From Chrysomallon squamiferum (Eukaryota > Animalia > Mollusca), in assembly GCA_012295275.1 (NCBI GenBank), contig CM022665.1, positions 40,114,001 through 40,178,000 on the forward strand: 64,000 nt of DNA. Reading direction: 5' to 3'. The translations under genes were made by a program, and so were the position numbers. Every line of letters starts with the position of its first letter. The first letter of the stretch is position 1. The notes below the pieces were generated by a model that saw only the letters and a program-made list of their open reading frames with translations, did not search any database and was not told where the DNA came from. Positions 16,647 to 41,254 of this stretch are shown here, piece after piece.

Positions 16647-16758
16647 ACGTATTTCTAAAACTCACTTCATAGTAGCTATCCTGTAATCTATGCTTTTATA
16701 AAGTAAACTCTCTCTCTCACATACACTTATTTCTAATTATCATAATAGTCATAAACAA

Positions 16759-16801
<43 letters not shown>

Positions 16802-17246
16802 GGAATTTAACACAGATATATATTTCTATTTGGTGCAGTTTACATTTTTGTAGGCCTTTTTTTTTCTGCTATATTTCTGTTAAATACGTTTTTTTAGTTT
16901 TTAATGTGTAACCTTAAGAATGTAGTTTTTTTGTGATTAACTAAATTAGAAATTAGCAAGATTTATATTTTTGTTTTAAATGAAATCAGAAAATTAAAAT
17001 GAGACAATTAAGTTTGCTTCATTCAAAATGTAAAAACCAAAAACAAAAGACATTTCATCATTCTGTGAATTGATGTCAAAGATAAAATTTTGTTTGATGT
17101 TTTGAAGTAGATTAAAATAGTAACAAGAAACGTTTTACAGAGAAAAAAAATAGTAAAAGCTGAATGACTATTAATACATTAAATTCACATTCATTTAAAT
17201 TAACATTTGTTTTTCTCTACCTTTAATTTCCATATATATATATATA
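16280..17246. repeat. Diverged copy of the GTF2E1 downstream flank (57397-58174), left half
   Basis: Collinear match (roughly 85% by eye) ending in the same ...atttcca(TA)n tract. Confidence 0.85.
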
Positions 17247-18019
17247 AGAAAATCGATTCATTAATAACCAAAGAAAACAACGTGAACTTGTATAATGCTC
17301 GCGCTGCACCGGTGCATTCCTAAATTGGAGGAAATATATATAAAAATAAAATATCATGTCTGCGCCCCTGAAACATGATTGGAAATATTAGTTTTGTTGG
17401 TAAGTTTTGATTAGTCATAGTAATTCTGATTCGTTATAACCATTGTTAACTCTTATACTACAATCGTGTTGTATCAGTAAATGTTTCTGAAGTAAAAAAT
17501 TAAAATGCAATGAATATTAAGTCCAGATTTCTTATTTTTATTTTAATATTTTTTATTAGGAATCGTAATTTCAGTCTCGACTCAGTGCTAGTGCTAGTCC
17601 TGAATAAACATCCAAGTTTCCTTTCGTCACGTTCCAACCACAGATATGACAGCATACTTTAGTGCACATTATTCTTATTGCAGACAGCACTCAATTGTGA
17701 TTTCATTAAAAACTACATTTAGACTCATTTATAATTTATAATCATAATGATAAATACATTTCATCATTAATTTTATTTTGTTATCAGTTATTTTTTAAAT
17801 TATTATTCAAAGATGCAAGGCTGATTTCAAACAAATTTGGCAAGTGATGTAAATATTTGATATATTTAAATATAAACCAAAGAATTTTATTTTATTTTAT
17901 TTTTTATTATTTTTTAATTTTATTTTATAAAGCAAATTTTGATATCAAAATATATAAGCAAAACTGAAAGTGAAAATAATATATTTTAATAAAAATATTT
18001 ATCTTATGACTTTCATATA

Positions 18020-18053
<34 letters not shown>

Positions 18054-18088
18054 TTCATTACAGGTGAAACCCCTGTAACTTTGACAAC

Positions 18089-21047
18089 ATGAATATTAAC
18101 AGTCCATTGTTGTGTAGGATTATAAATTGGAAACTTTATCATTTGATTAGTAATATCTGTGTCAAAAAAATCGTGCCTTAATCTGTCAGTTTTCAAGATG
18201 TCTCGTTGTATTCTGGTTTGTTCACCTTGCCAGCACAAAGACACTGTGTGTTATGTCAGAGTTGAGCCTTGCATACAATGTCTCCATTGTGTGCAGCCAA
18301 GGCTAGAAATACGAAGACGAAAATGGTAATCATAACAATAATAATAATCTGTTTATTTATTAGTGTGGGTGTGTGTGTGTGTGCGCACGTGTATACATAC
18401 ATATGCACAGTACCTCTGATACATTTTAAATAATGGGTTGTCTGAAAAGTTTTGAACAATTTCCAGAGTTGTGTTTTAAAGCACTTTATGTGACAGTGTA
18501 ATGTTGGTATGACTGATAAAGTTTGCATCACTTGCACAAGTTGCAGTGTGATAACCTACTGGCTACGTCTCACACAAGAAATCGGTCATCTCTTCCTTTT
18601 GTGATGTTTTGTCAGCTGTTATCAACAACAAAAATAGGTAACCAAAAGTTGTATTTTCAACATGTAATTATTATTTTTCCTTAAAAAGGGTAAAATCACT
18701 GCAGGAACATGTAAAAATCATTTTGTGAAGGTGCTAAATGTGAATCAGTAATTTGGAGATGGTTTGCAAAATTCAGATGCATGGGATTTCAGCTTAGAAT
18801 ATGCCAATCGCTCTGGAAGACCTTCAGATTTGGATAATGATTTATTTGAAGGTAAACACTGAAGCTAACCCAAACTTCATGACTGAGGAGCTTGCAGAAA
18901 TATTGGCTGTCCCCAAAAATACAGTTCATGAACGCTTAGTGAAATTTTGGTACATTTACCCGCTATGATGTTTGGATACCTCACAACCAGTCAGAGGAAA
19001 ACTGCATGGACCAGTGCTTCATCTGCATGCTGCTCTTAAAATGCAATAAATCTGGACCTTTCTTTAACTTACTATCACCAGAGATGAAAAATGGATTGTC
19101 TCCACTAACACAGTGTGAAAAAGTTGCAGACATTTGTGTGAAAATCCACCAACAGACCTACCAAAGCTGAATGTTCATGAAAAAAGGTTATACTTTTGTC
19201 TGTTTGGATTTCAAAGTCATTATGTATTATGAGCTGCTACCAACCAGTTATATCATCAATTCTGATTACCACTGTCACCAGCTGGAAAAAAATATTAAAA
19301 AGCCAGAACTAGCCAGCATGGAAAGGGTTGTGTTCCAACAAGACAATGCCAGACCTTGTATGTGTTTTTGGCTGCCCACACAATGTCATACGAGTTGGGG
19401 TGGAGTCTCTTACTATATCAACCACACCCTCCCAATACTGCACCTTCTGAGTTTCATTTGTTTAGGTCCCTGCAATATTTGTGCAATATTTATTGATCTA
19501 GATGCCATCAAAAAAATCCTGGATAATGTCTTTTCCTCCAGGACAGCCCAATTCTGCATGGGTGGAATTATGTGGCAGTCAAACAGATGAACTAAAGTTA
19601 TTCATAAAAATGGAGGATTTGATTTATTAATAACATTTATTGTAATGTGGATAAATCTGTTTTATTTCCATCCTTCAAAAATGCTCAGAATTTGCTGGAC
19701 AAACCATTATATGCCCTTAATTTGTCATCATGGATACGGAACTTCGAAATTTATCTACTTTATTTCATATAATACTGATAGTTTAAAATCGTATTTGTTA
19801 CTGAGATAAGTAGCATTGTACTTTATTATTTTTTCAGAATATTATTAGTAAATTACATACAAATTATAATGAAATGAGTATATCTTGTTATTATTTTTTA
19901 ATAAAATTTTTTTTTTTATTATTATAATTATTATTATTATTATTATCAGATTCGTCCAGTCAGAGTAAACATAAAGCCTATAAAACAAGAGGTAATCAGT
20001 TCACTCAAATATGACTGTTGCTGAACTTGCTAAGGCCTTGAGCAAAGATACAGGTTGGTTTAATAATAGCATATATAAATGTATATATATATATTAAAAG
20101 TAAATAAAAATAAACACATAAGAATAAAATGCATACATCAGTGAACACATACACCATATACATATATATATACACATACACACACACACTTTTAATTTTT
20201 ATCTTTTATTTTTTTTATTAATTAATATAATTATTATCTTGCTAATAATTAAACAATATTGATTAATATGATATTTAGCATCTTGGATGTGTTTGTAATT
20301 TTCCAGACCATGTTTTTGATGTGCTGGCCTATGTTCCAGGTGGTGACAAATTTGATACAGAAAACTCGGGTATGAATGAATTTAACACAAATCTTCAAAA
20401 GAAAATCAGTGAAGTACATCTGTTTAAGATTATAATAAGGAAAGATTGTAATTTGTGTACAATAAGTGAGCAATGATCATTTAATAATAATGTCTTGATG
20501 TTATTGTAATATATAAATGTAAGATATGGATAATACGTGTGTGTGTGTGTGTGTGTCTATAGACAGAAGTATTAGTTATTTAGATACAGATACGGATATA
20601 GTTACGTGTTTGTATATATCTAGAGAGAGTGAGAATCGGAGAGACAGAAAAACAAACAGAATGAGAGAGAACAAGAGATACTGATTAATGTAAATTTTTA
20701 AAATTATGTTATAAATGAAATAAAAATGCAGTAACAAACAGGTTTTGAAGCACTGATGTTAGTTCCTTTTCTTATGTAACTTTGCCTATCATCTTTAATT
20801 TTATTACTGCTAGTATTATTATTACTACTACTACTACATTATAGTTATTATTTTTCTTTCATTTTTATAATTATTACTAATAACTAGATACATATTATAA
20901 TTAATATTCTTAATTTATGTAATTAATTAATAAATTAATTTTTGATAGAAATTGATGATTTGAGAGTAATCCAAGAAGTTGTAAAAAAATCAGGCTACAG
21001 ATGCAAACTTGGACAGAAAACACAAGTTAAGGAAAAGGAAAACAAAG
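18089..21047 (+). pseudogene. MTIF2: Mitochondrial translation initiation factor IF-2, disabled 5' fragment
   Basis: Exons 18089-18325 (transit-peptide-like; in-frame TAA 18179, TGA 18263), 19950-20053 (frameshift), 20307-20369, 20949-21047. They give NMTVAELAKALSKDT|DHVFDVLAYVPGGDKFDTENS|EIDDLRVIQEVVKKSGYRCKL...EKENK, matching the MTIF2 N-domain. No G-domain exons follow. Confidence 0.75.
18433..19707 (+). mobile_element. Full-length decayed mariner transposon (~1.27 kb)
   Basis: Imperfect TIRs (ATGGGTTGTCTGAAAAG... / ...GCTGGACAAACCAT) with TA on both sides. Broken transposase motifs WFAKFR, RSGRP, WIPH, DEKWI, QQDNARP, APSEFHLF. Confidence 0.9.
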
Positions 21048-21179
21048 GTATAATCCGCCAGTACATATAACATTAAATTTAATATCTTCACTCTAACACA
21101 CACACAAACACACACACACATGAAGGAATGAGGACTGCAGAGATGTGGGAACAAATCTCACTGCTGGAAACACTTGGAA

Positions 21180-21527
21180 TTAAAGGCTGATAAACCTACG
21201 GAGTGGCTCGTAAGTAACGAGGTTATTTCTGATTGCGGAATTTACACAAAGATGACGTTCTGTTGAAGAACAGGGTGAAAAATGTCTTGGAGTTAATGGA
21301 GAACACTTTCAATAATATTTGTAAACATATTGAATGTAAATTCTTTTTTTTAAATAAAAAGAAAACAAAAGAAAAAAGATTAATGAATTGAATTTCAGAA
21401 AGAAATTCTTAAATTCAAAAGACAGAATGGAAAGATGAATTATATGAAAAGACTGGTTAAAAAATAAAAGTTGTGATTTTTAGTAAACATCTTTGATATG
21501 AAGGTTACCTCCTTCTCAGTTGCTCAT
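21180..21527 (-). pseudogene. Possible orphan last two exons of an unidentified gene
   Basis: Exons 21527-21509 and 21259-21180 have AG/GT sites and matching phase: MSN*EG|ERHLCVNSAIRNNLVTYEPLRRFISL*. No homolog recognised. Confidence 0.3.
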
Positions 21528-21964
21528 CTTGAAATAAAAATCACAAAATACAGTGTCACTATTTATTTTAAATAAAAGTCATGTTGTTTTGTTTTGGGGT
21601 TTTTTGTTTGATAATTTGTTTCTTTGTTTTGTTATTTTAATTAAAGCAAACACAAGGGTGAAAAATAATAGTAATAAATAAATAAATAAATAAATAAACA
21701 ATAACAAAATAATAATAATTAAAAAAAACATACCTTAAAATGCTGATCTTTAGAATTTAACCAATACTGACATTATTATATACAATATTACAAATTATAA
21801 TAGTTATTTTTTATTTTATAGTTTTTTTTTAAAAATAAAGTATATAATACCTACAACATAAAATCTGCTCAGAATACTTTCATAAAACTACTTTCACAGA
21901 ACAATTTATCAGAATCATTTTCATTTAGGCCAGTTTATAAAATGCTATGATATACAAAGATATA

Positions 21965-22560
21965 TATAGTGAATTCTGTGAGAACCAGATTTTGTTGGGA
22001 TATGCCATTTTAGACAGAGTGCCAGTTTATAAAGATTAAAATAACATAAAATTGGAATATGTTTTATTACAAGTTAAATGTCTAACAAGTGTGAGTGTTA
22101 AAATAGTCTGTCACTGACAACTGTGTTTTTTTCATATTTCTCTCCAAAGCAAACTCCTCTGTCATGGCCTCCATGTTTTAACATCAGTTGCAAAAGTCTT
22201 CTTTTGGTTGTAGCAGCAACAAATTTAATTAATTTTATTATTTTAAGAATGATAGTGTATAAAAGTTTGCATGTATCATCAATCCATTCAGATTTTTCAG
22301 TTTGCAGGTCATTACATTTTCTTTCTGCCAAATAGTTGGTTTCATACAACTGTTGGTAATGAATACTGCATTTTAAATTGCTTAGCTAAATCTTTCTGTT
22401 TAAACAGTGGATTTGATGTAAACTATTCAAGTAATTTCACTTTAGACTGCATTGAAAGCTTGGTAAGTTGCCATTTTTTTAGGTTGTTCTGACATTACGA
22501 TGAATTCAATAAAACAATGCAAAATGTGCGCCATATTCATTTATGCAGGCGTCTGCTTTT
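21965..22560 (-). mobile_element. pogo/Tigger remnant
   Basis: Tigger-like terminal sequence (...ttagacagagtgccagtttata) and a decayed CENP-B/psq-type HTH: QLTKLSMQSKVKLLE*FTSNPLFKQKDLAKQF. Confidence 0.5.
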
Positions 22561-24009
22561 GATACTAAATCTAAAATGAATGAATTCACCTAGGTATCAA
22601 TACACACTAACAATAATCTTGTTCATCTGACTGCATACAGTAATTACAAGAAGCATGGCATCATTGTCTGTTAAACCTTGTCAGAGATTTTAGATGAATC
22701 ATGGCACAATAAGTGCGTAATTTTACCATAATTGTGTTAATTAAAATTGTGACAGATCACACAAAAACTCAAACAACATATTTTATTGATTTCAGCCAAA
22801 ACATTTTTATAAACATGAAAGTTGAGATGTTTTCAAAAGTGTTTATGGTGAAAACAAAATTCATCAATTGATCATTGGACTGCATATATTCCTGATATAT
22901 TAAATAAAATAAAACTTGCCTAATAGCAAAACATTATAATCATGCGTTAGTATGTATGTCTGTGCATGTATGTGCATGTGCACATGCATGTGTCATGAAT
23001 GTTAGTCTTCCTGCATATATTATATATACATACCTGTGTTTCAAACTTGACAAATGGACAATCAGTCTCCAAAATTATCAGCTGTTTCAGATGACTCCCT
23101 TCACTGATTTTCAAAGAAAACTACAATAACAATAATAATAATAAAATAATAGCTTTTACTTTATACATTATTTACATACCGAAAAAGAAAAGTGACAGTA
23201 AAGTAATTAAAGAAACTTATTTTGATAGGCAAAGAAACTAAGATACATTTAATGAACCAAGTTTGAAAATTAACAGTTTCAGTACTTTACAAATTAAAAA
23301 ATCCAAAAAAATATAAATTAAAAAAAAAGAAGTTTTATTACCTTTATTAGAGTTGTTTGTACGTATTCTAATGTAGAAAAAAAACCCAACAAAAACACCA
23401 CTGTAAGTTAATTTATTGTAAGAACAACGTCATATCAATTTCATGGAAGATGATGAAACTGCTTACTTCTACTACTGCCTTGAGAGGACCTTTATCCAGA
23501 ACTCTAGCCTTGGAGACTACATTTTCTACCGGTTTTCTGAAAATTTTAAATATATATATATACACACACATAAATATAAAATCTTCTACATTATTTTAAC
23601 AAACATATATTTGAATACAAAAAATGTGCATATATAATTACATTTACATGTGTATATTCATAATTACACATAAAGCATACTTCCATTTTAATAGTTTCAT
23701 TATCCATCAAGAAGATATTGAAATAAATTTCAATTCTCTCATAAATTTTCTGTTCATAAGACAATTAGGACTTCTAAAATAAAACAGAGTTACCTGGTTT
23801 CTAGATGGTAATCCATCACATCCCAGGCATCTCAGAACAGTGGTATGTCATCAAAAATGACAAACTGATTGGCTGGGTGGTCAGGACTTACAGTATTCCT
23901 TCAAGAGAAAAAAAACAACAAAAAACAGCATCCAGATAAACCTGTTTGTACTTTAACTTTTATACAAAATCATAGAAGTTTGTAATCTCAAATTCTGTGA
24001 GAGAGGGTG

Positions 24010-24228
24010 ATGGGTTAGGATTAAGATTAGGGTTGGGGTTGGGGTTGGTGTTAGGGTTAGAGGTTGGTGGTTAGGGTTAGGGTTGGGGTTGGGATCGGGT
24101 TATATGTTGGTGGTTAGGGTTGGGGCTGGCTTGGGGTTAGAGGTTGGTGGTTAGGGTTGGGGTTAGAGGTTGGTGGTTAGGGTTGAGGTTGGGGCAAGAT
24201 TGATGATGTGTTTAGGTTAGGGTTAGAA
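24010..24228 (+). repeat. Degenerate TTAGGG/TTGGGG telomere-like tract (intronic)
   Basis: Runs of ggttag, gggttg and ggttgg. Confidence 0.85.
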
Positions 24229-26070
24229 ACTGAGTAGTTTTGGGATTCTCGTTTTGTGGGATTTGGGTTCAAGATTCTGGCTATTAAGGATTTAGGTTCA
24301 GGATTTTGTCTGACATTCAGCATCTTGACTTTTTGGCCTGCGACACAAATTTTTAATAGGTATACAATAATTTATATTCAATAAAACATGGATACTTCTT
24401 GCTTAAGACTAACAAACCTATCTTCTCAGTGTGTTCCCTCTATCTATAAATCACCCCCAAAAAAAAAAAATTAAACACAGATATCCCAAATCAGTAATTG
24501 CTATAATGAGGAACATTATTTCTAAGTGAAATGAAAGTATGAGTGTTTATTTACTTATCAAATCCTGAGACTTTGAGTGAAGTGACTCTTCCACACTGAT
24601 CTATCAACATAGACAGATGTCCATTCCTCATCATAATCAAACCATTCTGAAATGTACAGTGTTATAATATACACAGTAATTTACAATGTCATAATTAACA
24701 TGAAATACACAATGTTATAATGAACGTGAAATATACTATAATAAAATATACATTAAATATATAATGTTAAGATGCATATTAAATATGTTTTAATGTATAT
24801 AAAATACATAATGTAAATTATTAAACCTACTCTTACCTCATTTTTATATGCCTGGACAATATCAGTAACTGGCAGTGGTACAAGGGGAGCAACTCCACAA
24901 CCTGGAGCTTTGATGTAAGCTGTAAATAAAACAATAATAATCAGCATTTGTTTTTGAATTTATTTATCTATTTATCATTTAGTAAACATTAACTAGAATA
25001 ACATTTAATTTTATTTAGAACATTATTATGATAACCACTATTTATTTATTTAGATCATTATTATGACTACTGCTACTACTTTTCCTACTACAATTACTAC
25101 TACTACCACTACTGCTACTACCATTACTATTTCTGCTGCTTCTACTACTGCTACTAGTGTCACCATTTCTGCTACCACCACTACAGCTACAACTATTACT
25201 ATTACTAGTATTCCTATTAATATTATTATTACTATTACTTCAACTATCATTACAGTGGGTTGCCAGAGCCCAAGGAAAGGAAAGTATTGCACCCCCAACT
25301 CATCTCCAAGACCCTTTGACCAATGCAGAAGTGAACCCTTTACCCACAAAACAAGTATTTTAAGAAAATTCTGATGTAATTAAAGTAAACTGCATTTAAT
25401 GCTAACATCATATATAAAAATTTTGATTCCAGAAATAAAAAATATCATTGCATAAAAGTTGTGTGCAAGCAATATGACAGTGCCATCAATACAACAGGAA
25501 TTTATATATACAAATATTTTCATGAAAATATTCAAATGTCATCCATAATATGATAGGAATTTACATATAGACATTAGAAGTTATGGAAGGAACATTTTTT
25601 GTGTGATAGAGAAAGTATACTATTCTATTACTACTTTTTTTATTTATTTATTTTTTTGTTTATTTATTATTATTATTATTTTAATTTTGGGCCTGCCATG
25701 GACTACTCCCATTATTAGTACTGCAATAAGAATGACAATCACCATCACTATTATACCACAGCCATCAAATCATATGTTAAAATTTACAGTTCTTACAAAT
25801 TAGGTTTTCCTGCATCCTCATAATGCCAGCTTTCTCATAAAAAAACTAAGTAAGTAAATTCTTCCATATTTAACCATTTTCTCACCTAAAGTATTTCCAT
25901 GGCTGTCTGTTTGTACAGGTCCGTTTGGCTTTCTAGGTTTCTTTGCTTCTTCATTATCTCCCCTTTGTAACACAACGACCCCTGACCTCTCCCAGCAGAG
26001 GGAGTTGATAACTGATGGAGCAGTCACATCACTTTCCTGAATAACAAGTCAAAGAAAGAAGCAAACATTA

Positions 26071-26770
26071 TTTGAATAATTTTCTTTATCATGATTTTAA
26101 TAAATTGTTAGTGTCTGTTTGTCATTAAATAAATCAAGTAATAAAGTAATAAATAAATAAATAAATAAAACAAGACTGTAGAAATGTTTGTTTTCTCTTT
26201 AATTATCATTATTTGGGATTGACATTTGAGAAGTTAATAATAAAAATGCCAAAATTCTGACGCAAACACTCTATATTAATGTGCCTTAATATTAAAACAG
26301 TCACTATTAATGTGCCTGAACACTAAAGCAAATAGCCCATAATAATGTACCTGAACATTAAGCAATGAGTTCATATTAATGTGCCTGATATATTAAAGCA
26401 AACTTTCCATAATAATTATTTGAATAATTTTCTTTATTGTGATTTTAATAAATTGTTAGTATCTGTTTGTCATTAAATAAATAAATAAATAAATAAAACA
26501 AGATTGTAGAAATGTTTGTTTTCTCTTACTTTATTATTATTTGGGATTGACATCTGAGAAGTTAATAATAAAAATGCCCAAACTCTGACTCAAACACTCT
26601 ATATTAATGTGCTTAAACACTAAAGCAAATAATCCATAATAATGTGACTGAACACTAAAGCAATGAGTTCATAATAATGTGCCTGAACATAAAGCAATGA
26701 GTTCATACTAATGTGCCTGAACACTAAAGCAATGAGTTCATATTAATGTGCCTGAACATTAAAGCACTCA
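26071..26770. repeat. Local ~345-bp duplication containing ~35-bp tandem units
   Basis: 26071-26400 resembles 26416-26770; unit TAATGTGCCTGAACACTAAAGCAATGAGTTCATAT. Confidence 0.85.
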
Positions 26771-27906
26771 GCCCATAAATAACTGCTTGAAACGCATACT
26801 AAATGAAAGCCAGCCAAATTCAAGTTGTTGCAGCAAGTGATATAAGTGAGTAAATGTTAATATCTAATAGTATTACTTTTCCCAACACATTTGCCAAAGC
26901 TTTAGCATAAAGTTCAGTTCCTGCATCTTCAACATCTGCAGTGACAGAAGGAAAATACATATTATTACACGTGTGTCACAAAATATAAACACATACAAAG
27001 GATAAAAAAAGTAAAGAATGAACTTTATTATTATTTCAAGTCTGAAATGTGTTTCCACCACAGTTCTGATTGTGACAGATATAAGTATGTTTGTGGGTCA
27101 GATAAGAGATGTATGGATGTGTGAATGTATGATGATGTATGTCACAGAACAGACTACTTTGATGTCACTGGGCAATGAATGAAAATTTCTACCATAAAGG
27201 ATTTGTACTAGTTTCTTCCTTAGGAAACAACAGAAGACATTTTGCTTAGTAACTCAGTTTACAAAATAAAATCAAAAACTAATAATAATAATAAAAGGAT
27301 TAAAAAACATTAAATAGTTTGTTACCTTTGTAATACTTGTGAGCATCTTCATACACCTAAAAAATAATTTATTTTTCATTATTATAAACACAAAAATTAA
27401 CTTAAATGCATTTTATTTCCATAGGATTCCTTTATTTCTTACTACTTAACAACCTTTTACTACTAATAAATTTAAACCTACAATTTAATTTTGATAGTGA
27501 TAAAAGCAATTAACATCTTATTTTATTATTGAAAACAGCCTTTTTGTTTTTGCAGACCTTCTGAAAGGTCCTTGAAGTCTGTTTATCCACATGACCCTCC
27601 CCACCAAGTTCATGGACCACATTTTGAAGACTGAGGCTATAACCTAATAACTTACAATATGGATAGAAGATCCAGGCAGGACATCGTGAAACTGGTTGAG
27701 AAGCAGCAGTTTACAGAGTCGCAGTATTTCACTCTGTGGGTATTTGTAGTTGCTGTCTTTTGATGAACTCTGAACTGTTGCTATGGTGGCAAACAGTTCT
27801 ATGTCTCTTAGGAGAATTTCACATTTTCTGTTCTCTTTCTTGACCTGATGATTTTAAAATAAATAAACGAAAAGATAAATAAATAAATAAATAACGAAAT
27901 AAATAA

Positions 27907-27973
<67 letters not shown>

Positions 27974-27989
27974 GTATTATAATATAATA

Positions 27990-28047
<58 letters not shown>

Positions 28048-29412
28048 AATAATAAGTATCATTACACATAATAATAACACTAATAACAATAACAACAACA
28101 ATAATAATAATAACACAACAATAACAACAGTAATAATAATAATAATAACTAATTAATTAATAAGTATAATAAGAATAACAGATAACCTTCTACACTGTGA
28201 TTCTGTAATGGCAATGATTTTAATATAGAAAATAATCTTTCCATTCACTGGCTTTCATTTGTATCTGTTGAAGAAATGCTGCCATTTAAACTACAAAAAT
28301 ACTATACATGTCCTAATATTTTTTTCACAGCCTATCTGCAGTTGTATTGACTTTGGGATTTCATTACTGACCCTTCTGAATACATAAAAACCTAGAATAA
28401 GGCTAAAAATGAGAAACTATTTAACAATATGACTGTAAGCAAATCTCGCCTTGGCCTGTGTGGTGTAGGTTCCATTGTGTAACTCCAGATACAGCTCTCC
28501 ATGCCAGATACACAAAGTTTTCTTACTTTCTTTTTCTACCAGTGAAAAAAACTCATCTGGTCCACTCAGTTTCACTCTGCAGTGAGATAGTTAGAATAAA
28601 GAGAAAATTAAAATCTGTTCTTAACTGTTTCACAGATAAAAAAACAAATAGTATTATTGTTATTAAAATTGCTTGTTATTTATAAATAATTTCAGAAATA
28701 ATAATAACTGATCTTGACAGTAGTTTTATGGAGATATATTTTACTCATACGTTTGAAGACTAGTTGTCTTTTTAATTATAATATTATTATAAAAACAGAA
28801 TGTTTGATAAATAATACTAATATATATTCAAGAGATGTAGATAGAGAGAGAGAGTGAGAGAGAGAGAGACATAAAGAGGAGAAGAGTATGTGTGTGTTTG
28901 TGTGTGTGTGTGTACATACAGAAATTAACAGAACATTTGATTTTGAGATGTCTTGAACATTATAACATTAATACAGTATATCATTAATGCAAGTAATCTA
29001 ATATCTTTGGGAGTAAACAATATATTGTATATGTGTTGTAAACTTACTTTGGAATTCCATCCACATTTTCTAATCTTTGTAGCTTTTCCAACATCTCCTC
29101 TCTGATTCGAGAATAAAGAAACAGAAAACAGAAAATGAATACAACATGAACAATAGTGATGATGATGATGATAATAACAATAAAAATATCAATAACAACA
29201 ACAATGAAACAATTTAATAATAATAACAGTAATAACAAAATTAATAATAATAGTAATAGTAATATTAATGGTAAGAAGAAACAGAAATAGCAACATTCAC
29301 CTATACAACTACATACATGATACAGTAACAGGATGGGAGAGTGTGTGTGTGCGTGTGCGTGTGTGTGTGTGTGTGTGAGTGAGTGAGTGAGTGAGTGAGT
29401 GAGTGAGTGAGT

Positions 29413-29462
<50 letters not shown>

Positions 29463-29511
29463 CAGACATAAAGAGAAGAAGAGAGAGTATCAATAATACA
29501 AAAGATTTTTT

Positions 29512-29562
<51 letters not shown>

Positions 29563-30882
29563 AGAACAGACATAAATAAAGAAGAAGAGAGAGTATCAAT
29601 AAACAAAAGGAGAAAAAAGAGAGAGAGAGAGAGAGAGAGAGCAGACATAAAGAGAAGAAGAGAGAGTATCAATAATACAAAAGATTTTTTAAAAAAAGAG
29701 AGAGGCAGGGATTGACAAACACGTGTTAACAAAAGAGAATTTAAAACTTACGTTGGTCCATGGCCTCCATCTCCATATCCAAACAGATAACAGCTTCGTC
29801 CAGATCTGCCTTTGTCCTTAAAATTTTTCACACTGAACAAAACCTGAACCAAAAATCACAAAACACGTTTTATTATTAACTCTGTGGTAATTTTCTCACT
29901 GCTTATCCTTTTAATAATTCTGTTTACATTTCACATACTCTTCAGTGTAGTAATGTTAGACATTTACATGCGAACTGAGTAAGAAATTGAAATTTGTTAA
30001 AAGAATTATAATAAAATTTAAAGTTTTAAAATTTAATAAAAAAAGAAGCATTACCTCCTGCACATCTCCTTTCATACAGTAAGAATCACCAGGAGGAAAA
30101 TGAGTCAACACTGAGGTTCCATCCAGTCCTGACCACCAGAAAGTGTGGTGCTGAAATAATAATAATATTATTATTATATTGACCATAATGATGACCATGA
30201 TGATTGTAGAGAGATAAATAAACAAAAAGTTGGGTTTTTGAAACTTTGTATTTTTTTTTTTTTTTTCCAGCTTTATGTTCTGTTTTTACATTCTTTCACA
30301 TCAAATGAAATAAAAAAATAAAACCACCATACTTTTTGAGAAAACTAAATACAAAGATGTTTCTTCTTTGTTTTCCTTCTTTTTTACATTCATATATATA
30401 AAACTCTAAAAAAAAAAAAAATAATAATAATAATAATATAACACAAATGAGATTAAGCATCAATCCATGTTTTCTTTATTGTAATACTTTAAACTATCAT
30501 CAAATATTAGTTTACAATTAAAAAATAAAAAGTTAGATATTATTTAGATATTTATATATATATATATATATATACTTACTGTAGTTTTTAAATTTCGTTT
30601 TCAAATAAATATAGCATAAAAACTATTCAAATATGTACTTTAATTTAAACTATATAAAATAAACTATATTAAATTAAACTTTATAACATCTGAATTTTAT
30701 TGACTTAATTTTATTAAATATATATCAAGGAATATGACAGAATATTTTTGTGAACTTACAGGAAACTTGTTGACAAGATTCCAGCTTAGTTTCTGTGTGA
30801 GAAATCTTGACATTCCACAATGTTTCATTATCTGTGGTATCTGAGCAGAGTATCCAAATGTGTCTGGTAGCCAGAACTGAAA

Positions 30883-30913
<31 letters not shown>

Positions 30914-31778
30914 ATTTTTAAAAAAAAAAAAAAAAAAAATAAATAAAATAAATAAATAAATAAATATAATTTTAAAAACCAAAACTAAAACTTAAAACTA
31001 ACACAATAAAAAATTAAATTAAATAAATAAATAAATAAATAAATATGATTTTAAAAACTAAAACAACAAAATTTGGTATTATGTATTTATTTATTTTTAC
31101 TGTATATTTTAAAATTATATTTTCTTAATTACTTTTTTATTGGTAACACAGATATTTATTTATTTATTGTTTCATTTATTTATATTTTAAAATTACATTT
31201 ACTTCCTTGCTTTTTTTTACTTCTTAACCTACTTTATTTTATTTTTTTTTTTTTATTTTTTTTTTTCTTTTTTTATCTTAATAATATTTTTAAACATAAT
31301 TTTAAAATACATAAATAAATGAAACAATAAATAAATAAATATCTGTGTTAGCAATTAAAAAGGAAGTAAGAAAATATAATTTTTAAAATATCCAGTAAAA
31401 ATAAATAAATACATAAATAAAATTAATAAAATATTTGTTTAAAAATAATTTTAAAGACAAATTAATTAATATATTCTACCTCGGTACAAGTGATCCCAAA
31501 TTCTTTTCTGAAAAATTGTTGACCATAAAGAAACTGACGCACAAAAGCTTCTCCGCTTGGAATGTTCCCATCCTATAAACAAATGGAAGAGGCAAAAATA
31601 AAAACAAATAAAATAGAAATACTAATTATAAAATTTAAATAAACTAAAAACCATAGTAAATTTTATTATGAACAAATATTATATTTTTATGCTTTACTGG
31701 TGTTATGATTAGCTAAAAGAAAATATATCAGAATTGTTTTATTATTGTTAAATAACATGTTAGAAAGACTACCAACAA

Positions 31779-31816
<38 letters not shown>

Positions 31817-32334
31817 GTGTGAGAAAAAAAAACAACAAATATTTCCTTATTATGTACTGTATATTCAATTTGCATAATCTTTTTAACTTTCTGATGATAC
31901 AATGAAATGAAAGAAATTTTATTTAATTACTAAATTTCGTCACTTTTCTTAACGTGCTTGAAAAAGTAAACATTCAGAATATTAAAAACAAATCAGACAG
32001 GACAGAAACAAACTGTCAACTCCTACCATTTCAACCCAGGATCCACCAACAGGTATAAACCTTCCTTCCTTTGCATAGTGCTTTATCTTCTCATACAGGC
32101 CAGGGTAATGTTGTTTAACCCATTCAAACTGCTGAGCCTATCAAAGTAAAATGAATAAAAACATTTCAAATTAACCATTCATGTTATATTTGAAAAATGG
32201 CCTAAACAGAGTTTGTACACTTCCATTCCAAATATTTCTTTGATTTATGTTAAGTTATGGTTTATGAAAATCCACCAACATGTTATAAACACAGTTTGTT
32301 TTTGAAAATAAACATTCAAATGGTTTAAAAAAAA

Positions 32335-33230
32335 TCAGATATGTTATTTATTTTAGGTAGTTATGGTTTTGAAAATACAGATATGTTATTTATTTTAGGT
32401 AGTTGTCATTTATGAAAATACAGATATGTTATTTATTTTTTTAGGTAGTTGTCATTTATGAAAATATAGATATGTTATTTTTTTAGGTAGTTGTTCATTT
32501 TTTGAAAAAATTTATGTTATTTTTATTTTTTGAAAAAGTGGTTTGAAAATTATATTTATTTTAGGTAGTTGTCATTTATGAAAATGTTTATGATATGTTA
32601 TTTATGTTAGGTAGTTATGGTTTATGAAAATACAGATATGTTATTTATTTTAGGTAGTTGTCATTTATGAAAATACAGATATGTTATTTTGAGTAGTTGT
32701 GGTTTATGAAAATATAGATATGTTATTTATTTTAGGTAGTTATGGTTTATGAAAATACAGATATGTTATTTATTTTAAGTAGTTGTTGTTTATGAAAATA
32801 CAGATATGTTATTTTGAGTAGTTGTGGTTTATGAAAATACAGATATGTTATTTATTTTAGGTAGTTATGGTTTATGAAAATACAGATATGTTATTTATTT
32901 TAGGTAGTTGTTGTTTATGAAAATATAGATATGTTATTTATTTTAAGTAGTTGTGGTTTATGAAAATACAGATATGTTATTTATTTTAAGTAGTTGTTGT
33001 TTATGAAAATACAGATATGTTATTTATTTTAAGTAGTTGTTTATGAAAATATAGATATGTTATTTATTTTAAGTAGTTGTTGTTTATGAAAATACAGATA
33101 TGCTATTTATTTTAAGTAGTTGTTTATGAAAATACAGATATGCTATTTATTTTAAGTAGTTACTGTTTATGAAAATATATATTTATTTTCAGTAGTTGTT
33201 GTTTATGAAAACAGAAAGTTATTTTTTTTA
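32335..33230. repeat. ~43-bp minisatellite, about 20 copies, in a MAN2C1 intron
   Basis: Unit TTTATGAAAATACAGATATGTTATTTATTTTAGGTAGTTGTTG. Confidence 0.95.
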
Positions 33231-34974
33231 ATGTAGTTGTGGTTCATAAAAAATGATTTATCATTCAAATCAGTATTGCACATAACAAACAGCTGGATAT
33301 TAACATGAAACAAAAAAAATCTGTTTAAATTTTAGAACATCTGATATGATACATCAAATATCCATTAATTTATTTATGACTGAAGACAGTATTACTTTTT
33401 AATATTTTTACATACATTATTATGACAAAAACAAGAACAGTAAGAACTATGATTAATACTATTACTACCACTACTACTACCACCATTATAATTATTATTA
33501 TTATTACAAGTACAAAACTGCATGTTTAACAAAAGGAAATTAGAGAAATAAGAACACTACCTGTGAACAAGTAAACACAAATTGTGGATACTGCTCCATC
33601 AATCTAACTGTTGTACTCCAGGATCGGGCACATTTTCTAATTGTCTCTGCATAAGGCCACAACCAAGCTACAAATAACATTTCAACACAATAAATAAATA
33701 AATAAATAAATACATAAAAGAGGAAGAAAAATAAGTAAAAGAAAAACAGTAACAAATATATAAATAAATAAAGGAAAATAAATCACAAATGAAAAGGATA
33801 AGAAAGTAATATTTTAAGATGCACAAAAACCATAAGCATACTTTCTATCACACACACACACACACATCCATACCAACACACACACACACACACCAGTCAT
33901 CTGTGTACACACAGAAATAACCATTGCACAAATTAATGAAACCAAATGTTACCTGTGTCAATGTGGGCATGTCCCATGGCATGGATCACATGTTGACTGT
34001 CACCATTCTTTTGTGAAAAAAATTGTTTTCCTAACTCTCTTCCTCTGAAACAGCAAGTACAAACACACTAAAATGCCCACAACAATACATAGACATGGTT
34101 TTGCTACTTTTCATCCATGAAAATGTTTTTAAATAAAAGTCTGTTCCGTAGCAAAAACTTTTAAAAATTGTTAACTGATATTTTTGTTTATATTTTATTA
34201 TTATTATTATTATTATTAATCTGCATTTTGTTTTTCTGGCTTTTTGGGGTTCAGTTTATTCATTAGCATTAAAAACTTCACCTCACTCTCCCTCCATCCC
34301 TCTCACACACGAACACCAACCCCCAGACACACACACACACACACACAAATTACTGGACTCACTTGCTATAAGAAGTCTTGTTTCCTACTTCTATCTGATT
34401 GATGATGTTGTTGACAGCATACAAAGACTGGTAACTTCTTTCACTGTCAGCTGGCAAGTCCTAAATTTTAAAAATACTTTTTAAATAAAATCTTCTACCA
34501 CAAATCTTCTATCATACTTAATTTAACTGTTCCCTCCACTTCTCAGAAACTAGTGCAACAAACATAACATTTCATTGCTTTAATCTTATCTTACTGTTTT
34601 TAACTGAACATTTTCTATCATTTGCAGTTACATGAGCTTGTAAAGAATGCGTCTGCTGGTTAATTTATAAAACGAAGCAGTGACTTCCATGTAATGGAGT
34701 GTTTGTAACTACAACATCATAATTATTTAGTGAGTAATTTGATTCAGTAGCAGAATGCATAACTTGTAGACACATAAATATACAAACTGGAGATCCTTTA
34801 TCCAAAGTTTTTCTGAGAAATAGAAATAGTGGAATCTTACAGTTTTCAGACTGTTTTTCATACACAAAATTCTTAAAATTATTATTAAAAAACATTGTTA
34901 AAAAGTTATTAAAAAATTAATTGTACAAGCTGTATATGAAATATAAATTGTAGTCATATTCTGATTCATATTCT

Positions 34975-35090
34975 ATAGACAGGCTAGGCTGTCTCCTTAT
35001 AATCAAAAATCCTAAAAAATTTTTAAAAAAAATGAAATTCAAAGCATATCCAGTTTGAAATATTCTGAATAAGGGATTCTCAATCTGTAC
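34975..35090. mobile_element. Short Tigger-type MITE
   Basis: Ends acaggctaggctgtctccttat... and ...ataagggattctcaatctgta are weak inverted repeats. Confidence 0.35.
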
Positions 35091-36129
35091 CTAACTAACT
35101 AATTTTCAGTAACAGTTTTTTTATTTTTTTTTATTTTTTTATATCTACTTTAACTAAATATATAAAAAAATAATAATAATAATAGCAGATCAAGAATATA
35201 TTCAAAGTACCTTTGCCATTTCATAAAGAACCATTAAGTCCCAGAATAAATTGTCTGCTTCCCTGTCAAAAATGGCCAATTCAGCTTTTGACAGTTTATA
35301 TGTTCTGTCGGGATCTGTTGGTGAAATTGTTCCACCTTTTCCTGCCCCAAACAAACCATTGCAGGCCATTTCTATGTATAAAGACTGTCTGAAAAAAAAA
35401 AACAAAAAAAAAATATTTTAAATATTTTGTAAAATAGTAATTTCCCTCTAAAATGTCTCACAAATACAAAAAATTAAGACAATTTAACAGTATATCTGCT
35501 GATAAAATATTACAAAGGAAATTAATTTTTTGTTCTCCCTCTTCAAAATAATTATTACTTTATTCCAAAAAATTAATATCTGTTATTTTAAAAATAATAT
35601 TTATGCTTTCTGTATTAAATTACTAATGTAGTTTTAATGTATTTTGTTGCACTTTGACCATTTTCCTGACAGTTAAATACTTGGTTTTTTTTTATAAATA
35701 GTATCTCAAATTTATCCTTGTTAAAATATTCTGTTTTAAAAAACAATATGAAGTAACATCTCCAAATGGAGACAAAAGACAAACAATATCGCTAATAAGA
35801 AATATATATTCATACAGACATAAATAAATATACAAATACATACCACATAAACACAAAAATACACATATACCTGCACACTCACAATTTCTAATGTGAACAC
35901 ACATTAAAATATACATACAGACATGAAAATAAACATTTTAAAATTACTTCATTTTTCTTTTTTCTGTTTTCTAGACAAAATAAAGTCTTCTCTACCAGAT
36001 TCATGTTCTCCACTTAAACCCTGAAAAATATGACAACTGAAATGATTTGTATAAATAAAATAAAAAAATAATAAAAAATAGCTGCAGAATAATAGTAGTA
36101 GTAGCAGAAGCCATATTTGTTGTAATAGT

Positions 36130-37830
36130 TGATATGGACCATAACAGATCGAAAGCTACATCTACTGATTTTAAGGCTGGTTTTACAAAAGAATTTAATT
36201 CTTTTACTTTTTTTTGGAGAGCTTTAGGGAGAGTAGAATTGGCGAGATTCTCCTCCAGGAATTTCATGTGATGTATGCATTGCAGAATGCCATACATCAG
36301 TTTTACTAAACTTGGCAGAAGGTTTGTTTTGTTGCTAACGTTATTTTTTGATTTTGGGTTTTTGGTATTATTTAGTTACACCATGTTTTCTAAGGTAAAT
36401 ACATATACAGACAAAAAAGAAAGGTACAAGTAGATAACTATACACAAAAAAAGTACAAGTAGATAACTATACACAAAAAATTACAAGTAGATAACTATAC
36501 ACAAAAAAAGTACAAGTAGATAACTATACACAAAAAAGTACAAGTAGATAACTATACACAAAAAAGTACAAGTAGATAACTATACACAAAAAAGTACAAG
36601 TAGATAACTATACACAAAAAAGTACAAGTAGATAACTAAATTCTTTAAAAAGAAAGAATGTTTACACTGTCTGGCTGGCTAACTAGTTTCGCAATACTGC
36701 GCTTCTTCAGAGCCTAAGAGGTGAATCCAAAGAAAGTTTGGTTGTTGGCTCATTTATGATATATTTGACTAATACATTCAGTGGGTGTGAAATGTGCTCG
36801 CAATTATAGAGATCACACTGGATCAGAAATCTTATTGTTAAGGGTCTGGGATGTTCATTACAACAAGCTGTAGTAACAATGGATGTGTTCACAACTGGCC
36901 ACTTTTGGTTTAAATTCAAAGTCGTTGCCCTTTAAGCTTAATTCAAGTAATTCCATAATAATTTCGGTTGGTCTGACTGTATTTGGATATTTTTCTAACG
37001 CTCTCTCAACTGATTCCATGCCTGCATCGATGTTTATGTTAGTGTACATGGAATCAATATCCAGGGTAACTGAAAAGGAGTTTGGTGGTATTTTTGTTTT
37101 AGATAAAAGATCATCTGTATTTTCAACAAAACTAGCATGTCTCTTTGCAATTGGTTTTAAATAAAAGTCAATATATTTGGAAATGTTATAAGATTCCGAT
37201 CCACAATCAGAGATGGTAAGACAGTTCATCTGTTTTTTTATTTATGTGACTCTCTTCCTGTTGACGAACAATAATTCTGTTGAATTTATTTTTATTGGTT
37301 CGCCACATGGCTTCCTACAATTTTTTATAATATTTCGTATTATTTAGTTGTCTATGGGTTTCGCGGATGTGATTTTCCCTTGACAAAATAACAGTTGCTG
37401 ATCCTTTGTCTGTTGGTTTGATTATTATTTTGAGATTTTTGCATAGATTGTTGACAGCATGTCATTCCATAACCGAGAGATTTTGTTTATTTGAATAAGC
37501 TGTTAATTTTCTATCATTTTCATATACATTTCTGTAAGTTTTTACGATCTCAGGATCAATTTTTGAATTATCAGGTGTCCAACCAGAATTTTCTGTCAAT
37601 GGTAGTTCTTCTCCACTTGAGTTTTTAAAATAACCGGCTAATTTCACCTTATGTTCAAAAATAGCTCAGTCCATTATGCCATCATCAAGAAGCCCTTCTA
37701 AACCAGTTTTGGGCTGAAGGGTAGGAACAAAGTTAAGACCTCAGTCCAACAGTGACTTTTCAGCGGTTGTTAGAAAGTTATTGTTTCCTGTTAGATTTAC
37801 GATGTTTGTACCTAACCCTATATTATGGTG
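36130..37830 (-). mobile_element. Penelope-like retroelement remnant (reverse transcriptase)
   Basis: Fragments NLT...EKSLLD*GLNFVP, IKPTDKGSATVI, ISDCGSESYNISKYIDFYLKP, TLDIDSMYTNI, LLELSLKGNDFEF. Confidence 0.85.
36420..36638. repeat. 29-31-bp tandem repeat, about 7 copies
   Basis: Unit AAGTACAAGTAGATAACTATACACAAAAA. Confidence 0.95.
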
Positions 37831-40401
37831 GTTAATACCATTACCTGAATTTAATTTTTTTTATTTATTTATTTTACCTGTATTGGTTCTCCATTTATCC
37901 AAACCATGGCTTCAGCACTACAGTTCCACAACAGCCTCACCTCAGAATCTTCCCAAGCAGATGGAATATCTATCTCAGCACGAAACCAGTGAGTTGACCA
38001 CCTTGAAAATAAATAATATATATTAATAAATATACTTAAAATGAATGAATTAATGAATGAAAATACTTGCCATTATCATGTTTTTAAAACAAATGAAATT
38101 TTCAAAATGAGTTGTTACTACAGTGACAGTATTTAGCTTGTATACATATAAGATGCCAGATATAAGTCAGTGCATTAATTTGTGAATATTTAGACTACGT
38201 ATACAATGACATAGAAAAGATAACAAGAAAAATGAGAAGAAATAGAGCAGAAGTATATACAACAAACAAACAAAATAAATAAATTTTAAAAAATAATTCA
38301 AGAAATATTCTTTAATATCTATATGTGATTACTTATACAATTTAATAAAAAAAAAAAAAAAAAAAAAAATAGGGGAAAAATTATTCTTTAATTTCCATAG
38401 ATCCCTTCAGTTCTTACGTGGGTCCAAATGATTGGCCAACAGATACTGGAGAGTAATCTCCCTTGATAGCCTCTTCATAAGGAATTCTTCCAGGAGCTTC
38501 ATAATGTTCTATCTTGGTTACACGGGCATGGTCACGATACAACCTGAAATCACACAATGTAGAAATATTAAAACAAGAGATGGTATATAAAGATTAGATA
38601 CAAATGGTTTAAATATTCAGCATATATTAAACTTGAAATTAACCTAGAGAACAGGAAGAAACTGGTTAAAATATTAGAATGCTATGCTTAATATTTATAT
38701 ATATATGTAGATGTGTAACATTTTTATTTATTATTATATTTTCTATATGTATTTTATTACTGGCATTATGATTATGATTAAGATTATTATTATTTGTCGT
38801 TATTATCAAATCAAATTGTTATTATTATTATTATCATCAGTATTATTACATGTACTCTTATTATCATCAACATCATATTTACTACTATTGAAACTGCTTT
38901 ATTATTTTGAAACATTCTTGGCCCTGTTATTTCTTCATAATTTTAGACTATATTCTGTTATAACTGTATTTGATACATACTTTCCAAACAGATTAACATC
39001 TGTAAAGTAGACAGATGAAAGAAATTTGTCTGCTCTTTCAAGAGTTGTTCTCCTGTTTTTGAAAACCACATGATCCATGTTCAAGTTACAACTGGCAATC
39101 AAAAAGAGCCTTTGAAAATAACATTAATAATATAATGAAGATTTGGTATTTACAATCAGAACATATAACAAATTTTATGTTCTTCGTTAATAGTTATTAT
39201 ATGTAATATTGAATTAGAATGAATTAGATAATCTTAACATTTCTGTGTGTGTGTGTGCATGCAAGCATGTGTGCAGATATGTGTTTTATGCATGTAACTT
39301 TGATGTGATGTTATGCTGCCTTAACTGGCTATTATTTAATCTATATAACACTTCCTCCAACATATAAATAAAAAAAAAAAAAAAAAAAATTACTGGAAAG
39401 ATGGTGCCAAAAAAAAATAAAGAAATGCATATATAATATGTCATATTAAGGCAATGAGGCATATTTGCATGTCAGTGAAATTATAATGTGCATCTCATTT
39501 TTATCTTCATCTGTGCACATCTTTAAATAAATACATTTTAAAAATTAATGGATGATAACAGTGTGGTTTAACAAATATTAAGAATGAACTTCTGCACAAA
39601 AAAAAAATATTTGTACAAAAGCTCTGACATATTATAGTCATGGCATTATTTATAAAAACTATTCATATTATGACATGGTAAAATTGAACAAGCTGATGAT
39701 AAATGATCCTATTTTTTAACCCAGTATGATTATCTGAGTATGAATATTCTGTTATTTTTTCAAAATGCTAGCTAATGGGACATTTTGCCAACTTTACCAC
39801 TTTTCGTCTCAAACTCTCCATGACGAAATGACATCATATCTTAAAAAGGAAAAATAATTACTGATTACCCTTAAAATCGAAGTTGTTCGTTGCATGTATC
39901 TATAATTATCTTAATAAACCAATCGGAATCTTCATCAGACGCAGGCTACTCAAACATGAGCGTTTTAAAATGTTACCGTTCAAATTACCTATGTGACAAT
40001 AACCTGATACAACCGATCGAATAACAGTATGTCTGAATTTCCAAGAACTGAAAGAAATTCACGTATCTGTTACACACTAAACTGTATTTTTTGGCGTGAT
40101 ACAAAAAACATGCATTTACTGCTATTCTTCTTTGTATATTTCCGCCATTATTGATTCGCACTACGTTATAAACATCAACGGCTTTATCGTTTAGCTTTTT
40201 TAAAACACAGAACAGATTACGTATTTGTTAAAGTATTTCTAATAGTGACAGTAATAATAATAGTTAATGTTACCAAACAGATGTTTGATTAAAGCAAACT
40301 AAAAACAAGCTTAATAATAATAATAATAAATCAAAGACATTTTTAATAAGCATTTGAAAGCAGCAAAGGGAGTGAAATAGATTATTAATGATTATTAATT
40401 A

Positions 40402-40998: not shown

Positions 40999-41254
40999 CG
41001 CGGACATTCTCGCCTGAAGATGGAATCGTTTATATGCGTGTTACCACAGAGATAAAAGACTTACCACAGCCTTTTGCAAACCATTGTAATGGAGCAGTGG
41101 TTGTAATGGAACATAGCCTAAAAGGGACCGGTGTGAAAGCTTGATCTCGTCATCTATCACACTGAATATTGATGTTATAATCACTGAGAAATATTCCGGG
41201 TCCAGGGGCGGATTCAGGGGGATTTCCCAATCGCACAAACACCCTCCCAAGCAA

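What the first reader, a model, noticed from the sequence alone, without database searches (positions are those of the whole stretch)
17247..40401. 23-kb cassette of fragments from several genes sits inside a (TA)n tract
Seen: 16280-17246 matches 57397-58174 up to the (TA)n run, and ~40402-40998 resumes the match right after that run (58173-58770). The window therefore holds both an empty and a filled site. The filler contains intron-bearing, disabled pieces of unrelated genes: MTIF2 5' exons (+), possible orphan last exons (-), and MAN2C1 from its upstream region through exon 24 (-). Inference: multi-locus capture by a large mobile element, or template-switch duplication. I could not find TIRs or Helitron ends. 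A precise deletion in the other copy is the alternative.
Basis: partly seen in the sequence, partly recalled or inferred. Interest (0 to 1): 0.7.

Follow-up and report, generated by a model that had tools for sequence, protein, structure and literature searches.

The report
Shuffled duplicate of two broken genes
A 23-kb block holding the broken front part of an alpha-mannosidase gene and of a likely mitochondrial initiation-factor gene splits a copy of a nearby sequence; it is likely a recent duplicate made through a DNA circle, a known route, rather than transposon cargo.

Summary
The filled and empty sites are real. The block holds a 24-exon MAN2C1 fragment (residues 9-799 of 1031; one stop, one frameshift) and an MTIF2-like 5' fragment; that name rests on recall plus one weak Pfam hit. 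Both genes start at the block's ends and point inwards. No terminal repeats or Helitron ends were found, and the 'orphan exons' were not confirmed. Contigs of 4 runs (3 studies) hold a second, probably intact version of the MTIF2-like region. One contig with that version's divergence and depth crosses the (TA)n junction, and flank depth roughly equals cassette depth in 4 of 4 runs. So the TA joint is probably older than the duplication that made the pseudogenes (about 2% per lineage, against 10-18% flank divergence). Best reading (0.45): two permuted, circle-type duplications, as in the cattle KIT alleles. Main rival (0.25): one circle from a head-to-head gene pair inserted at the TA run. Transposon capture is unlikely (0.07). 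The donor loci, the right joint and the inner joint were not seen in reads. Known kind of event, no sign of function; interest 0.3.

The parts
9652..15452 (.). Block G copy 1 (unidentified repeated block left of the filled site)
   Evidence: Matches 48817-55854 in three pieces at 3.0, 4.3 and 7.1% substitutions; the odd one out at 166 of 290 variable columns
16272..17246 (+). Left half of flank X, ending in the TA run
   Evidence: Matches 57397-58174 at 10-18% substitutions with low complexity masked; 17057-17166 is missing from the empty copy
17232..17246 (.). (TA)n run at the left joint
   Evidence: Sequence; crossed by X4 record 17, 17106-17277
17247..21047 (+). MTIF2-like 5' fragment (name recalled): upstream region, then exons 18064-18325 (ATG 18089; stops 18179, 18263), 19950-20053 (frameshift), 20307-20369, 20949-21047
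   Evidence: Translations, splice scan, Pfam IF2_N E 0.1 only; second version in 4 of 4 runs
18700..19600 (+). Decayed mariner-type transposase inside an intron of the MTIF2-like fragment
   Evidence: Pfam Transposase_1 E 7e-4, below cut-off; low depth in reads, no high-copy signal
21048..23033 (.). Middle piece holding the joint between the two gene fragments; unassigned, likely intron DNA with a transposon remnant
   Evidence: No Pfam hit of note; CpG-poor like gene bodies; pogo/Tigger-like motif near 22345-22494 is recalled only
23034..39078 (-). MAN2C1 pseudogene fragment, 24 exons, C-terminal ~230 residues absent
39079..40401 (-). Upstream region of MAN2C1, CpG-rich at 39802-40401
   Evidence: CpG o/e 1.39, against 0 of 70 CpG-rich windows in the cassette interior
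40402..40998 (+). Right half of flank X
   Evidence: Matches 58167-58770, 14.7% substitutions
40999..41021 (.). About 23 unmatched bases at the go-back joint (58770 joined to 50295 in empty-site terms)
41022..45761 (.). Block G copy 2
   Evidence: Matches 50295-55279 at 4.0%
48817..55854 (.). Block G copy 3
57397..58770 (+). Empty site: whole flank X with (TA)n at about 58158-58174
59529..59789 (-). Open frame holding the last coding exon of GTF2E1 (TFIIE alpha), next to the empty site
   Evidence: Pfam TFIIE-A_C E 5e-18

Best explanation
The block is a dead duplicate of the 5' part of MAN2C1 and of a likely MTIF2 gene, likely made by two successive circle-type (permuted) duplications and not by a transposon. 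Step 1 (old, inferred): a stretch beside GTF2E1 (block G plus flank X, 50295-58770 in window terms) closed into a circle, opened at its TA run and entered between MAN2C1 and MTIF2, which would have stood head to head. That gives a working locus of the order MAN2C1 / right X / G / left X / MTIF2. Step 2 (recent, inferred): a circle from that locus, closed between an MTIF2 intron and MAN2C1 intron 24, recombined through block G back into the G copies beside GTF2E1. That gives the order seen: G, left X, MTIF2 front, joint, MAN2C1 front, right X, G. The copies, cut off from their 3' ends, have decayed since. Shown: the order of parts, the lesions, the lack of element ends, a second version of the MTIF2-like region, and one diverged contig across the left joint. 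Inferred: that the second version is the working gene, the head-to-head ancestor, both circles and the crossover in G.
For: (1) Both genes begin at the cassette's ends and face inwards. Both terminal 600-base windows are CpG-rich (o/e 0.95, 1.39), against 0 of 70 interior windows. (2) No element ends: the best inverted match of the two 500-base ends scored 31 (shuffle maximum 38), the best direct match 20 (maximum 37). (3) Two ages: 1 stop in 2346 MAN2C1 coding bases (23 of 24 exons counted), or 3 with the MTIF2-like exons, implies 0.8-2% neutral change on this lineage (95% upper bounds 4.4 and 5.7%); 7% would give about 9 stops. The X halves differ from the empty site by 10-18%. (4), 4 of 4 runs: version B at 17405-17712 (27 other letters, 14 gaps; depth 225.7, 20.8, 215.2, 94.1). 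X4 record 17 crosses the joint with 31 letters on the right, 14 other letters and depth 216.2; B's rate predicts 14.7 changes, the window-like variant's rate 5.7 (P 0.002). (5) At 17151, a place missing from the window's empty copy, total depth is 1.15, 1.05, 1.00 and 1.23 times the total at 17568, against 0.32, 0.31, 0.49 and 0.44 expected if B lacked the flank. (6) In X2 and X5 the listed exon places 18107-18149 are covered only by B-type letters, and total depth at 18581-18693 in X1 and X2 leaves no room for a further copy, so B is likely the working gene. (7) Right X runs straight into G at a go-back joint. G1 is the odd copy towards left X (120: 22: 29 sites) and G2 next to right X (9: 17: 6), as hybrids would be.
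Against: The donor locus was never seen: no genome is held. The tool warns that contig depth is no copy number. The flank variant in the reads shares the empty copy's letter at 4 of 4 listed comparable places, so it could be an undeleted allele of the empty site, which would give the same depth as B. X4 record 18, in which the versions merge, begins at 17248, one base inside the cassette, as a different upstream donor would also cause. The 17151 deletion of the deep flank contig in X1 is absent in X4, so record 17 is not that same haplotype. Only 24 of 110 loose ends, 40 of 143 letter rows and 32 of 435 pieces were shown; only one listed piece bridges the joint. Whether B lacks the two stops could not be seen (5 of its 7 exon differences are listed). 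The G pattern is patchy, was divided after viewing, and its sites are not independent. The spacer between G and left X is not homologous between copies. A 200-N gap at 9452-9651 leaves the left context unsure.
Confidence: 0.45

Rival explanations
1. One recent circle. MAN2C1 and MTIF2 stand head to head at the donor; a circle cut from inside both genes opened in the shared upstream region and entered the TA run of an older copy of X, probably through a short TA match.
For: Same order of parts, inward-facing 5' ends and lack of element ends. In X1 the merged contig reaches at least 7 bases into the TA run (from_end values), which a donor with its own TA run would also give. The flank variant resembles the empty copy at 4 of 4 places. 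Needs only one event plus an older tandem duplication.
Against: Record 17 crosses the joint with B-like divergence and depth. Flank depth matches cassette depth in 4 of 4 runs. No clean loose end at the joint among the 24 of 110 shown. The right TA remnant is decayed for so young an event.
Confidence: 0.25
2. Internal deletion of a copied locus. An old permuted move placed intact MTIF2 and MAN2C1 tail to tail inside X; the window is a paralogue, a null haplotype or a decaying sex-linked copy that lost the middle.
For: Also predicts a shared left joint. In X4 the two versions have nearly equal depth (215.2 and 203) and share letters at 17248-17434 that the other three runs lack, as alleles or converting copies would. 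True orphan exons in the middle would fit a collinear remnant.
Against: In X2 the window's version and B stand about 1:2 (9.4: 20.8), which is not a simple heterozygote unless the sample is pooled. A common null allele of a likely essential gene is implausible (general knowledge). The orphan exons were not confirmed.
Confidence: 0.17
3. Cargo of a TA-targeting transposon (MuTAnT/TAFT-like, Pack-MULE or Pack-TIR) or of a Helitron.
For: A filled and an empty TA site exist. TA-targeting Mutator-like families are described (PMC4486113, passages), and Pack-TIRs occur in animals (PMC8277862, abstract).
Against: No TIR above shuffles; no TA array on the right; no TC...CTRR ends in either orientation; the ends read as gene-upstream DNA; depth at the left end (17338-17902) is of the same order as in the exon and intron further in.
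Confidence: 0.07
4. Assembly artefact: a chimera of haplotypes or paralogues in a repeat-rich scaffold.
For: A scaffold gap at 9452-9651. At 17058 the reads of all 4 runs disagree with the window. The exon 4 frame break lies in an A run. The inner and right joints are untested.
Against: Window-identical contigs lie on both sides of the left joint (records 2, 4, 10) and a contig crosses it. 4 runs of 3 studies hold 0.64-0.75 of the words of 33300-41200. The three stops are substitutions.
Confidence: 0.06

Closest known systems
Serial translocation by circular intermediates at cattle KIT (Durkin et al. 2012; not read, seen as described in passages of PMC3927395)
   Same: A segment moves with shuffled order, and part of the fused locus then returns to the original site by non-allelic homologous recombination; my two-step model has this shape.
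   Different: Here tens of kb rather than about 500 kb, old and decayed, with no known phenotype; the donor locus is inferred, not seen.
Circle-mediated segmental duplications (A-B/C-D to B-A/D-C; PMC7450558 and PMC7188851, part 1 of 4 of each read)
   Same: Permuted order, no element ends, and a short filler at a joint (about 23 bases at 40999-41021; they report gains or losses of 1-27 bases).
   Different: Those cases compare donor and copy directly; here a tandem duplication plus an insertion gives the same order in the window, so permutation is not proven.
TA-microsatellite-targeting MULEs (MuTAnT; TAFT and Micron as mentioned there; PMC4486113, passages)
   Same: Insertion into a (TA)n run, with an empty site of about nine units.
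   Different: MuTAnTs have long TIRs, TA arrays on both sides, 9-base TSDs and many copies; none of these was found here.
Pack-TIR / Pack-MULE gene capture (PMC8277862, abstract and outline; PMC3276141, passages)
   Same: Intron-bearing gene fragments in a new place.
   Different: No enclosing TIR element; the X halves are not inverted repeats and showed no transposon hit.

Membership tests
Circle-mediated (eccDNA) duplication | Permuted order between donor and copy | tested here: inconclusive
   Window order and the go-back joint fit, but tandem duplication plus insertion gives the same order; donor not available
Circle-mediated (eccDNA) duplication | No element ends; only short indels or microhomology at joints | tested here: inconclusive
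   No TIR or direct repeat and about 23 filler bases at one joint; the inner joint could not be resolved to the base
Circle-mediated (eccDNA) duplication | The copy's two ends are adjacent in the ancestor (MAN2C1 and MTIF2 head to head) | not testable with these tools
   No eukaryote genome held; metagenome scans found nothing; no paper holds both gene names
Serial translocation with return by NAHR | The returning segment carries joints of the first event | tested here: inconclusive
Serial translocation with return by NAHR | Hybrid homologous blocks on both sides of the returned segment | tested here: inconclusive
   Copy-specific sites 9:17:6 in the first 300 columns, 37:22:23 in the next 1200, 120:22:29 in the last 1711; patchy and divided after viewing
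TA-targeting MULE / Pack-MULE / Pack-TIR | Terminal inverted repeats | tested here: not met
   Score 31 against shuffle maximum 38; nothing terminal
TA-targeting MULE / Pack-MULE / Pack-TIR | TA arrays or a target duplication on both sides | tested here: inconclusive
   Perfect TA run on the left, decayed remnant on the right; a 2-base TA duplication cannot be excluded
TA-targeting MULE / Pack-MULE / Pack-TIR | Ends repeated at many sites | tested here: not met
Helitron | 5' TC and 3' CTRR ends (definition recalled) | tested here: not met
   Neither orientation shows them
MAN2C1 (GH38 cytosolic alpha-mannosidase) | Collinear homology to named MAN2C1 proteins | tested here: met
   E 1e-14 to 5e-13 for one exon against 4 proteins; residues 9-799 in order
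MTIF2 | Significant homology to an IF2 protein | tested here: inconclusive
   Pfam IF2_N E 0.1; no IF2 hit; the fragment stops before the GTPase domain (recalled layout)

The most novel reading that the evidence does not exclude
A second natural case, outside cattle and in an AT-rich animal genome, of serial circle translocation with return: a circle opened at a TA run split a head-to-head MAN2C1/MTIF2 pair, and a later circle carried both gene fronts back by recombination, with both sets of joints still readable. My search of the three terms together listed only two papers, both reviews by their abstracts.
Probability: 0.3. Interest if true: 0.5.

Novelty: new member of a known kind. Interest (0 to 1): 0.3.

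Why it matters
If the two-step model holds, it adds a rare, datable example of circle-mediated duplication with return, and shows that a 'filled versus empty site' can mislead: the apparent insertion joint may be older than the duplication. It would also mean that two working housekeeping genes were pushed apart in their shared upstream region and survived. The copy itself looks dead, so the value is for structural evolution and for correct annotation (a 24-exon MAN2C1 look-alike that is not the gene), not for new function.

Tried and rejected
No genome is held, so donors could not be mapped. MTIF2 identity: PDB searches with single exons or a read-through gave only de novo proteins, a hydrophobic chance match or nothing; HMMER over 1.84 billion representatives gave 0 hits at E 0.001; the word-index search gave 0 of 5 candidates. 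Metagenome scans: 303 pattern matches, none confirmed; 0 exact matches to the left end. Block G: 19 of the 42 frames lay in or beside it, as did 9 of the 19, with no Pfam hit above cut-off; Atlas best score 0.89, unnamed, nearest named family DDE_1 at 0.79, a lead only. Only 4 of 11 listed runs were laid, on 3371 bases. Similar short motifs at the two cassette ends were not above shuffles. The filler at 40999-41021 had no convincing template in the window. Earlier scan notes: nothing. Literature: the TAFT paper is not held; searches were off target, and the listings of 50 and 69 showed no matching case; MAN2C1 with MTIF2 gave 0 papers; Dada (PMC3706591, passages) targets small-RNA genes and does not fit. 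No supplementary files were read. A precise deletion in the empty copy was rejected by parsimony only.
Full report
Observation. The window is AT-rich eukaryotic DNA (GC mostly 0.22-0.38) with one 200-N gap at 9452-9651; no genome is held, and the organism appears only as a code. Self-BLAST (rows kept if at least 140 bases long, or complex and at least 40) shows that 16332-17062 matches 57416-58096 and 40402-40998 matches 58167-58770. Base-level alignment places both halves at the one (TA)n run of the empty site. The left side keeps a perfect TA run; the right side keeps a decayed remnant. I call this 1.4-kb flank X. The empty copy lies just past the last coding exon of GTF2E1 (Pfam E 5e-18). 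The order is G1, left X, cassette, right X, G2, other duplicated pieces, G3, whole X, GTF2E1.

Contents. One exon found four MAN2C1 proteins among 5 candidates. tblastn with P0001 covers residues 9-799 of 1031 in order on the minus strand. The model has 24 exons from ATG 39078 to 23034; exons 4 and 17-20 score weakly and are placed by splice sites and phase. Lesions: TGA at 23834-23832, a one-base frame break in an A run at the end of exon 4 (possibly an assembly error), and a GC donor after exon 15 (possibly natural). No later exon was found. On the plus strand four coding exons between 18064 and 21047 carry two stops and a frameshift. Their MTIF2 name is recalled likeness plus Pfam IF2_N at E 0.1; five other searches gave no IF2 relative. 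A mariner remnant lies in one intron. The middle piece, 21048-23033, gave no hit of note in six frames and only weak splice support for orphan exons; it is CpG-poor like the gene bodies, which fits intron DNA.

Ends. The two 500-base ends share no inverted or direct repeat above 200 shuffles; local repeat scans show only AT-rich chance pairs; neither orientation has Helitron-type ends; each end motif occurs once in the window with up to 3 mismatches. Both ends lie just upstream of a gene that points inwards. Both are CpG-rich, against 0 of 70 interior windows (55 of 209 in the whole window, so this marks DNA outside gene bodies, not promoters as such). Two independent captures that both end just upstream of a gene are less likely than one break between two head-to-head genes (inference).

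Two ages. Stops imply 0.8% (MAN2C1 alone, 23 of 24 exons) to 2% (with the MTIF2-like exons) neutral change on this lineage, with 95% upper bounds of 4.4 and 5.7%. The X halves differ from the empty copy by 10-18% and the G copies by 3-7.5%.

Reads. Eleven runs were listed, four holding 0.64-0.75 of the words of 33300-41200 (the best holder may be the source sample). Four runs of three studies were laid as contigs on 16660-20030. All four hold a second version, B, of the MTIF2-like region: 27 other letters and 14 gaps over 17405-17712, and 7 other letters over the exon stretch 18072-18310 in X2 and X5. Window-identical or close versions occur beside it. In X1 and X2 total depth at 18581-18693 (373.8, 32.8) is about B plus the window-like versions, so no third copy of B's depth is evident and B is likely the working gene. 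Five of B's seven exon differences are listed; whether the other two remove the stops was not shown. X4 record 17 spans 17106-17277 with 14 other letters, 9 gaps and depth 216.2 (B 215.2; the window-like variant 203); its divergence fits B (14.7 expected) better than the variant (5.7 expected, P 0.002). At 17151, which the window's empty copy lacks, total depth is 1.00-1.23 times the cassette total in 4 of 4 runs, against 0.31-0.49 if B lacked the flank. Against this: depth is no copy number; the flank variant shares the empty copy's letter at 4 of 4 comparable listed places and could be an undeleted empty allele; record 18 starts at 17248; the 17151 deletion seen in X1 and X5 is absent in X2 and X4; and the tables were cut (24 of 110 loose ends, 32 of 435 pieces). 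I put about 0.6-0.65 on the left joint being shared with the working gene.

Block G. Right X is followed after about 23 unmatched bases by G from the 50295 position, a go-back joint. In a three-way alignment (3211 columns kept after masking low complexity and gap edges) G1 is the odd copy at 166 sites, G2 at 61 and G3 at 58, with 5 three-way sites. G2-only sites lead next to right X and G1-only sites lead towards left X. This is what hybrids from a crossover in G would show, but the sites come in patches, as gene conversion would also leave. G itself is unidentified.

Mechanism. Best (0.45): an old circle of G plus X, opened at TA, entered between head-to-head MAN2C1 and MTIF2; a recent circle from that locus, closed inside both genes, returned by recombination in G. 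Rivals: one recent circle into the TA run (0.25); internal deletion of a copied, allelic or sex-linked locus (0.17); transposon cargo (0.07); artefact (0.06). The first two share the circle and the head-to-head ancestor, neither of which could be seen here.

Comparison. Permuted duplication through circles is described in human (PMC7450558 and PMC7188851, first quarter of each read); the former also cites yeast, tilapia vasa and cattle KIT. The cattle case includes a return by non-allelic recombination (passages of PMC3927395; the original was not read). TA-targeting MULEs have TIRs and TA arrays on both sides (passages of PMC4486113); TIRs were tested and not met. It works like a circle-mediated duplication; membership is inconclusive because the donor is missing. 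No paper in the library holds both gene names, and one search for serial translocation, circular intermediates and invertebrate listed two papers; most subscription papers are not searched.

Verdict. Real and structurally interesting, but most likely a dead segmental duplicate of a known kind. Interest 0.3; 0.5 if the serial-return reading is proven.

Noticed in passing
window 36700-37800 (-): Decayed reverse-transcriptase-like frames in MAN2C1 intron 3, Penelope-like by recall; no matching Pfam hit.
   Followed up: partly
window 61700-63600 (-): Broken hAT-type transposase upstream of the GTF2E1 3' exons, likely intronic; Pfam Dimer_Tnp_hAT E 0.003, below cut-off.
   Followed up: partly
window 12531-12960 vs 53112-53321: A patch of block G where copy 1 differs by about 20% while neighbouring DNA differs by 0-4%; open frames on both strands; unidentified.
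   Followed up: partly
window 17248-17434: Within each run the versions merge here, yet X4 carries letters and a 13-base deletion that the other three runs lack: a hint of gene conversion between the copies, or of allelism.
   Followed up: no
window 18527-18897: A 371-base skip in X4 and X5 and not in X1 or X2: a deletion variant at the mariner remnant.
   Followed up: no
window 15656-16078, 32331-33252, 36420-36638, 26067-26766: Young minisatellites (47, 43 and 28 bases) and a 340-base tandem duplication with 35-base repeats.
   Followed up: no
window 46609-48667: A 1-kb tandem duplication (86%) between G2 and G3, with a 116-base piece of G at its joint.
   Followed up: no
window 174-353 and 4421-4700 (+): Exon-like frames of other genes left of the scaffold gap; no Pfam hit above cut-off.
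   Followed up: no
window 17058: Nearly all laid depth in all four runs reads another letter than the window: a likely assembly error or private variant.
   Followed up: no
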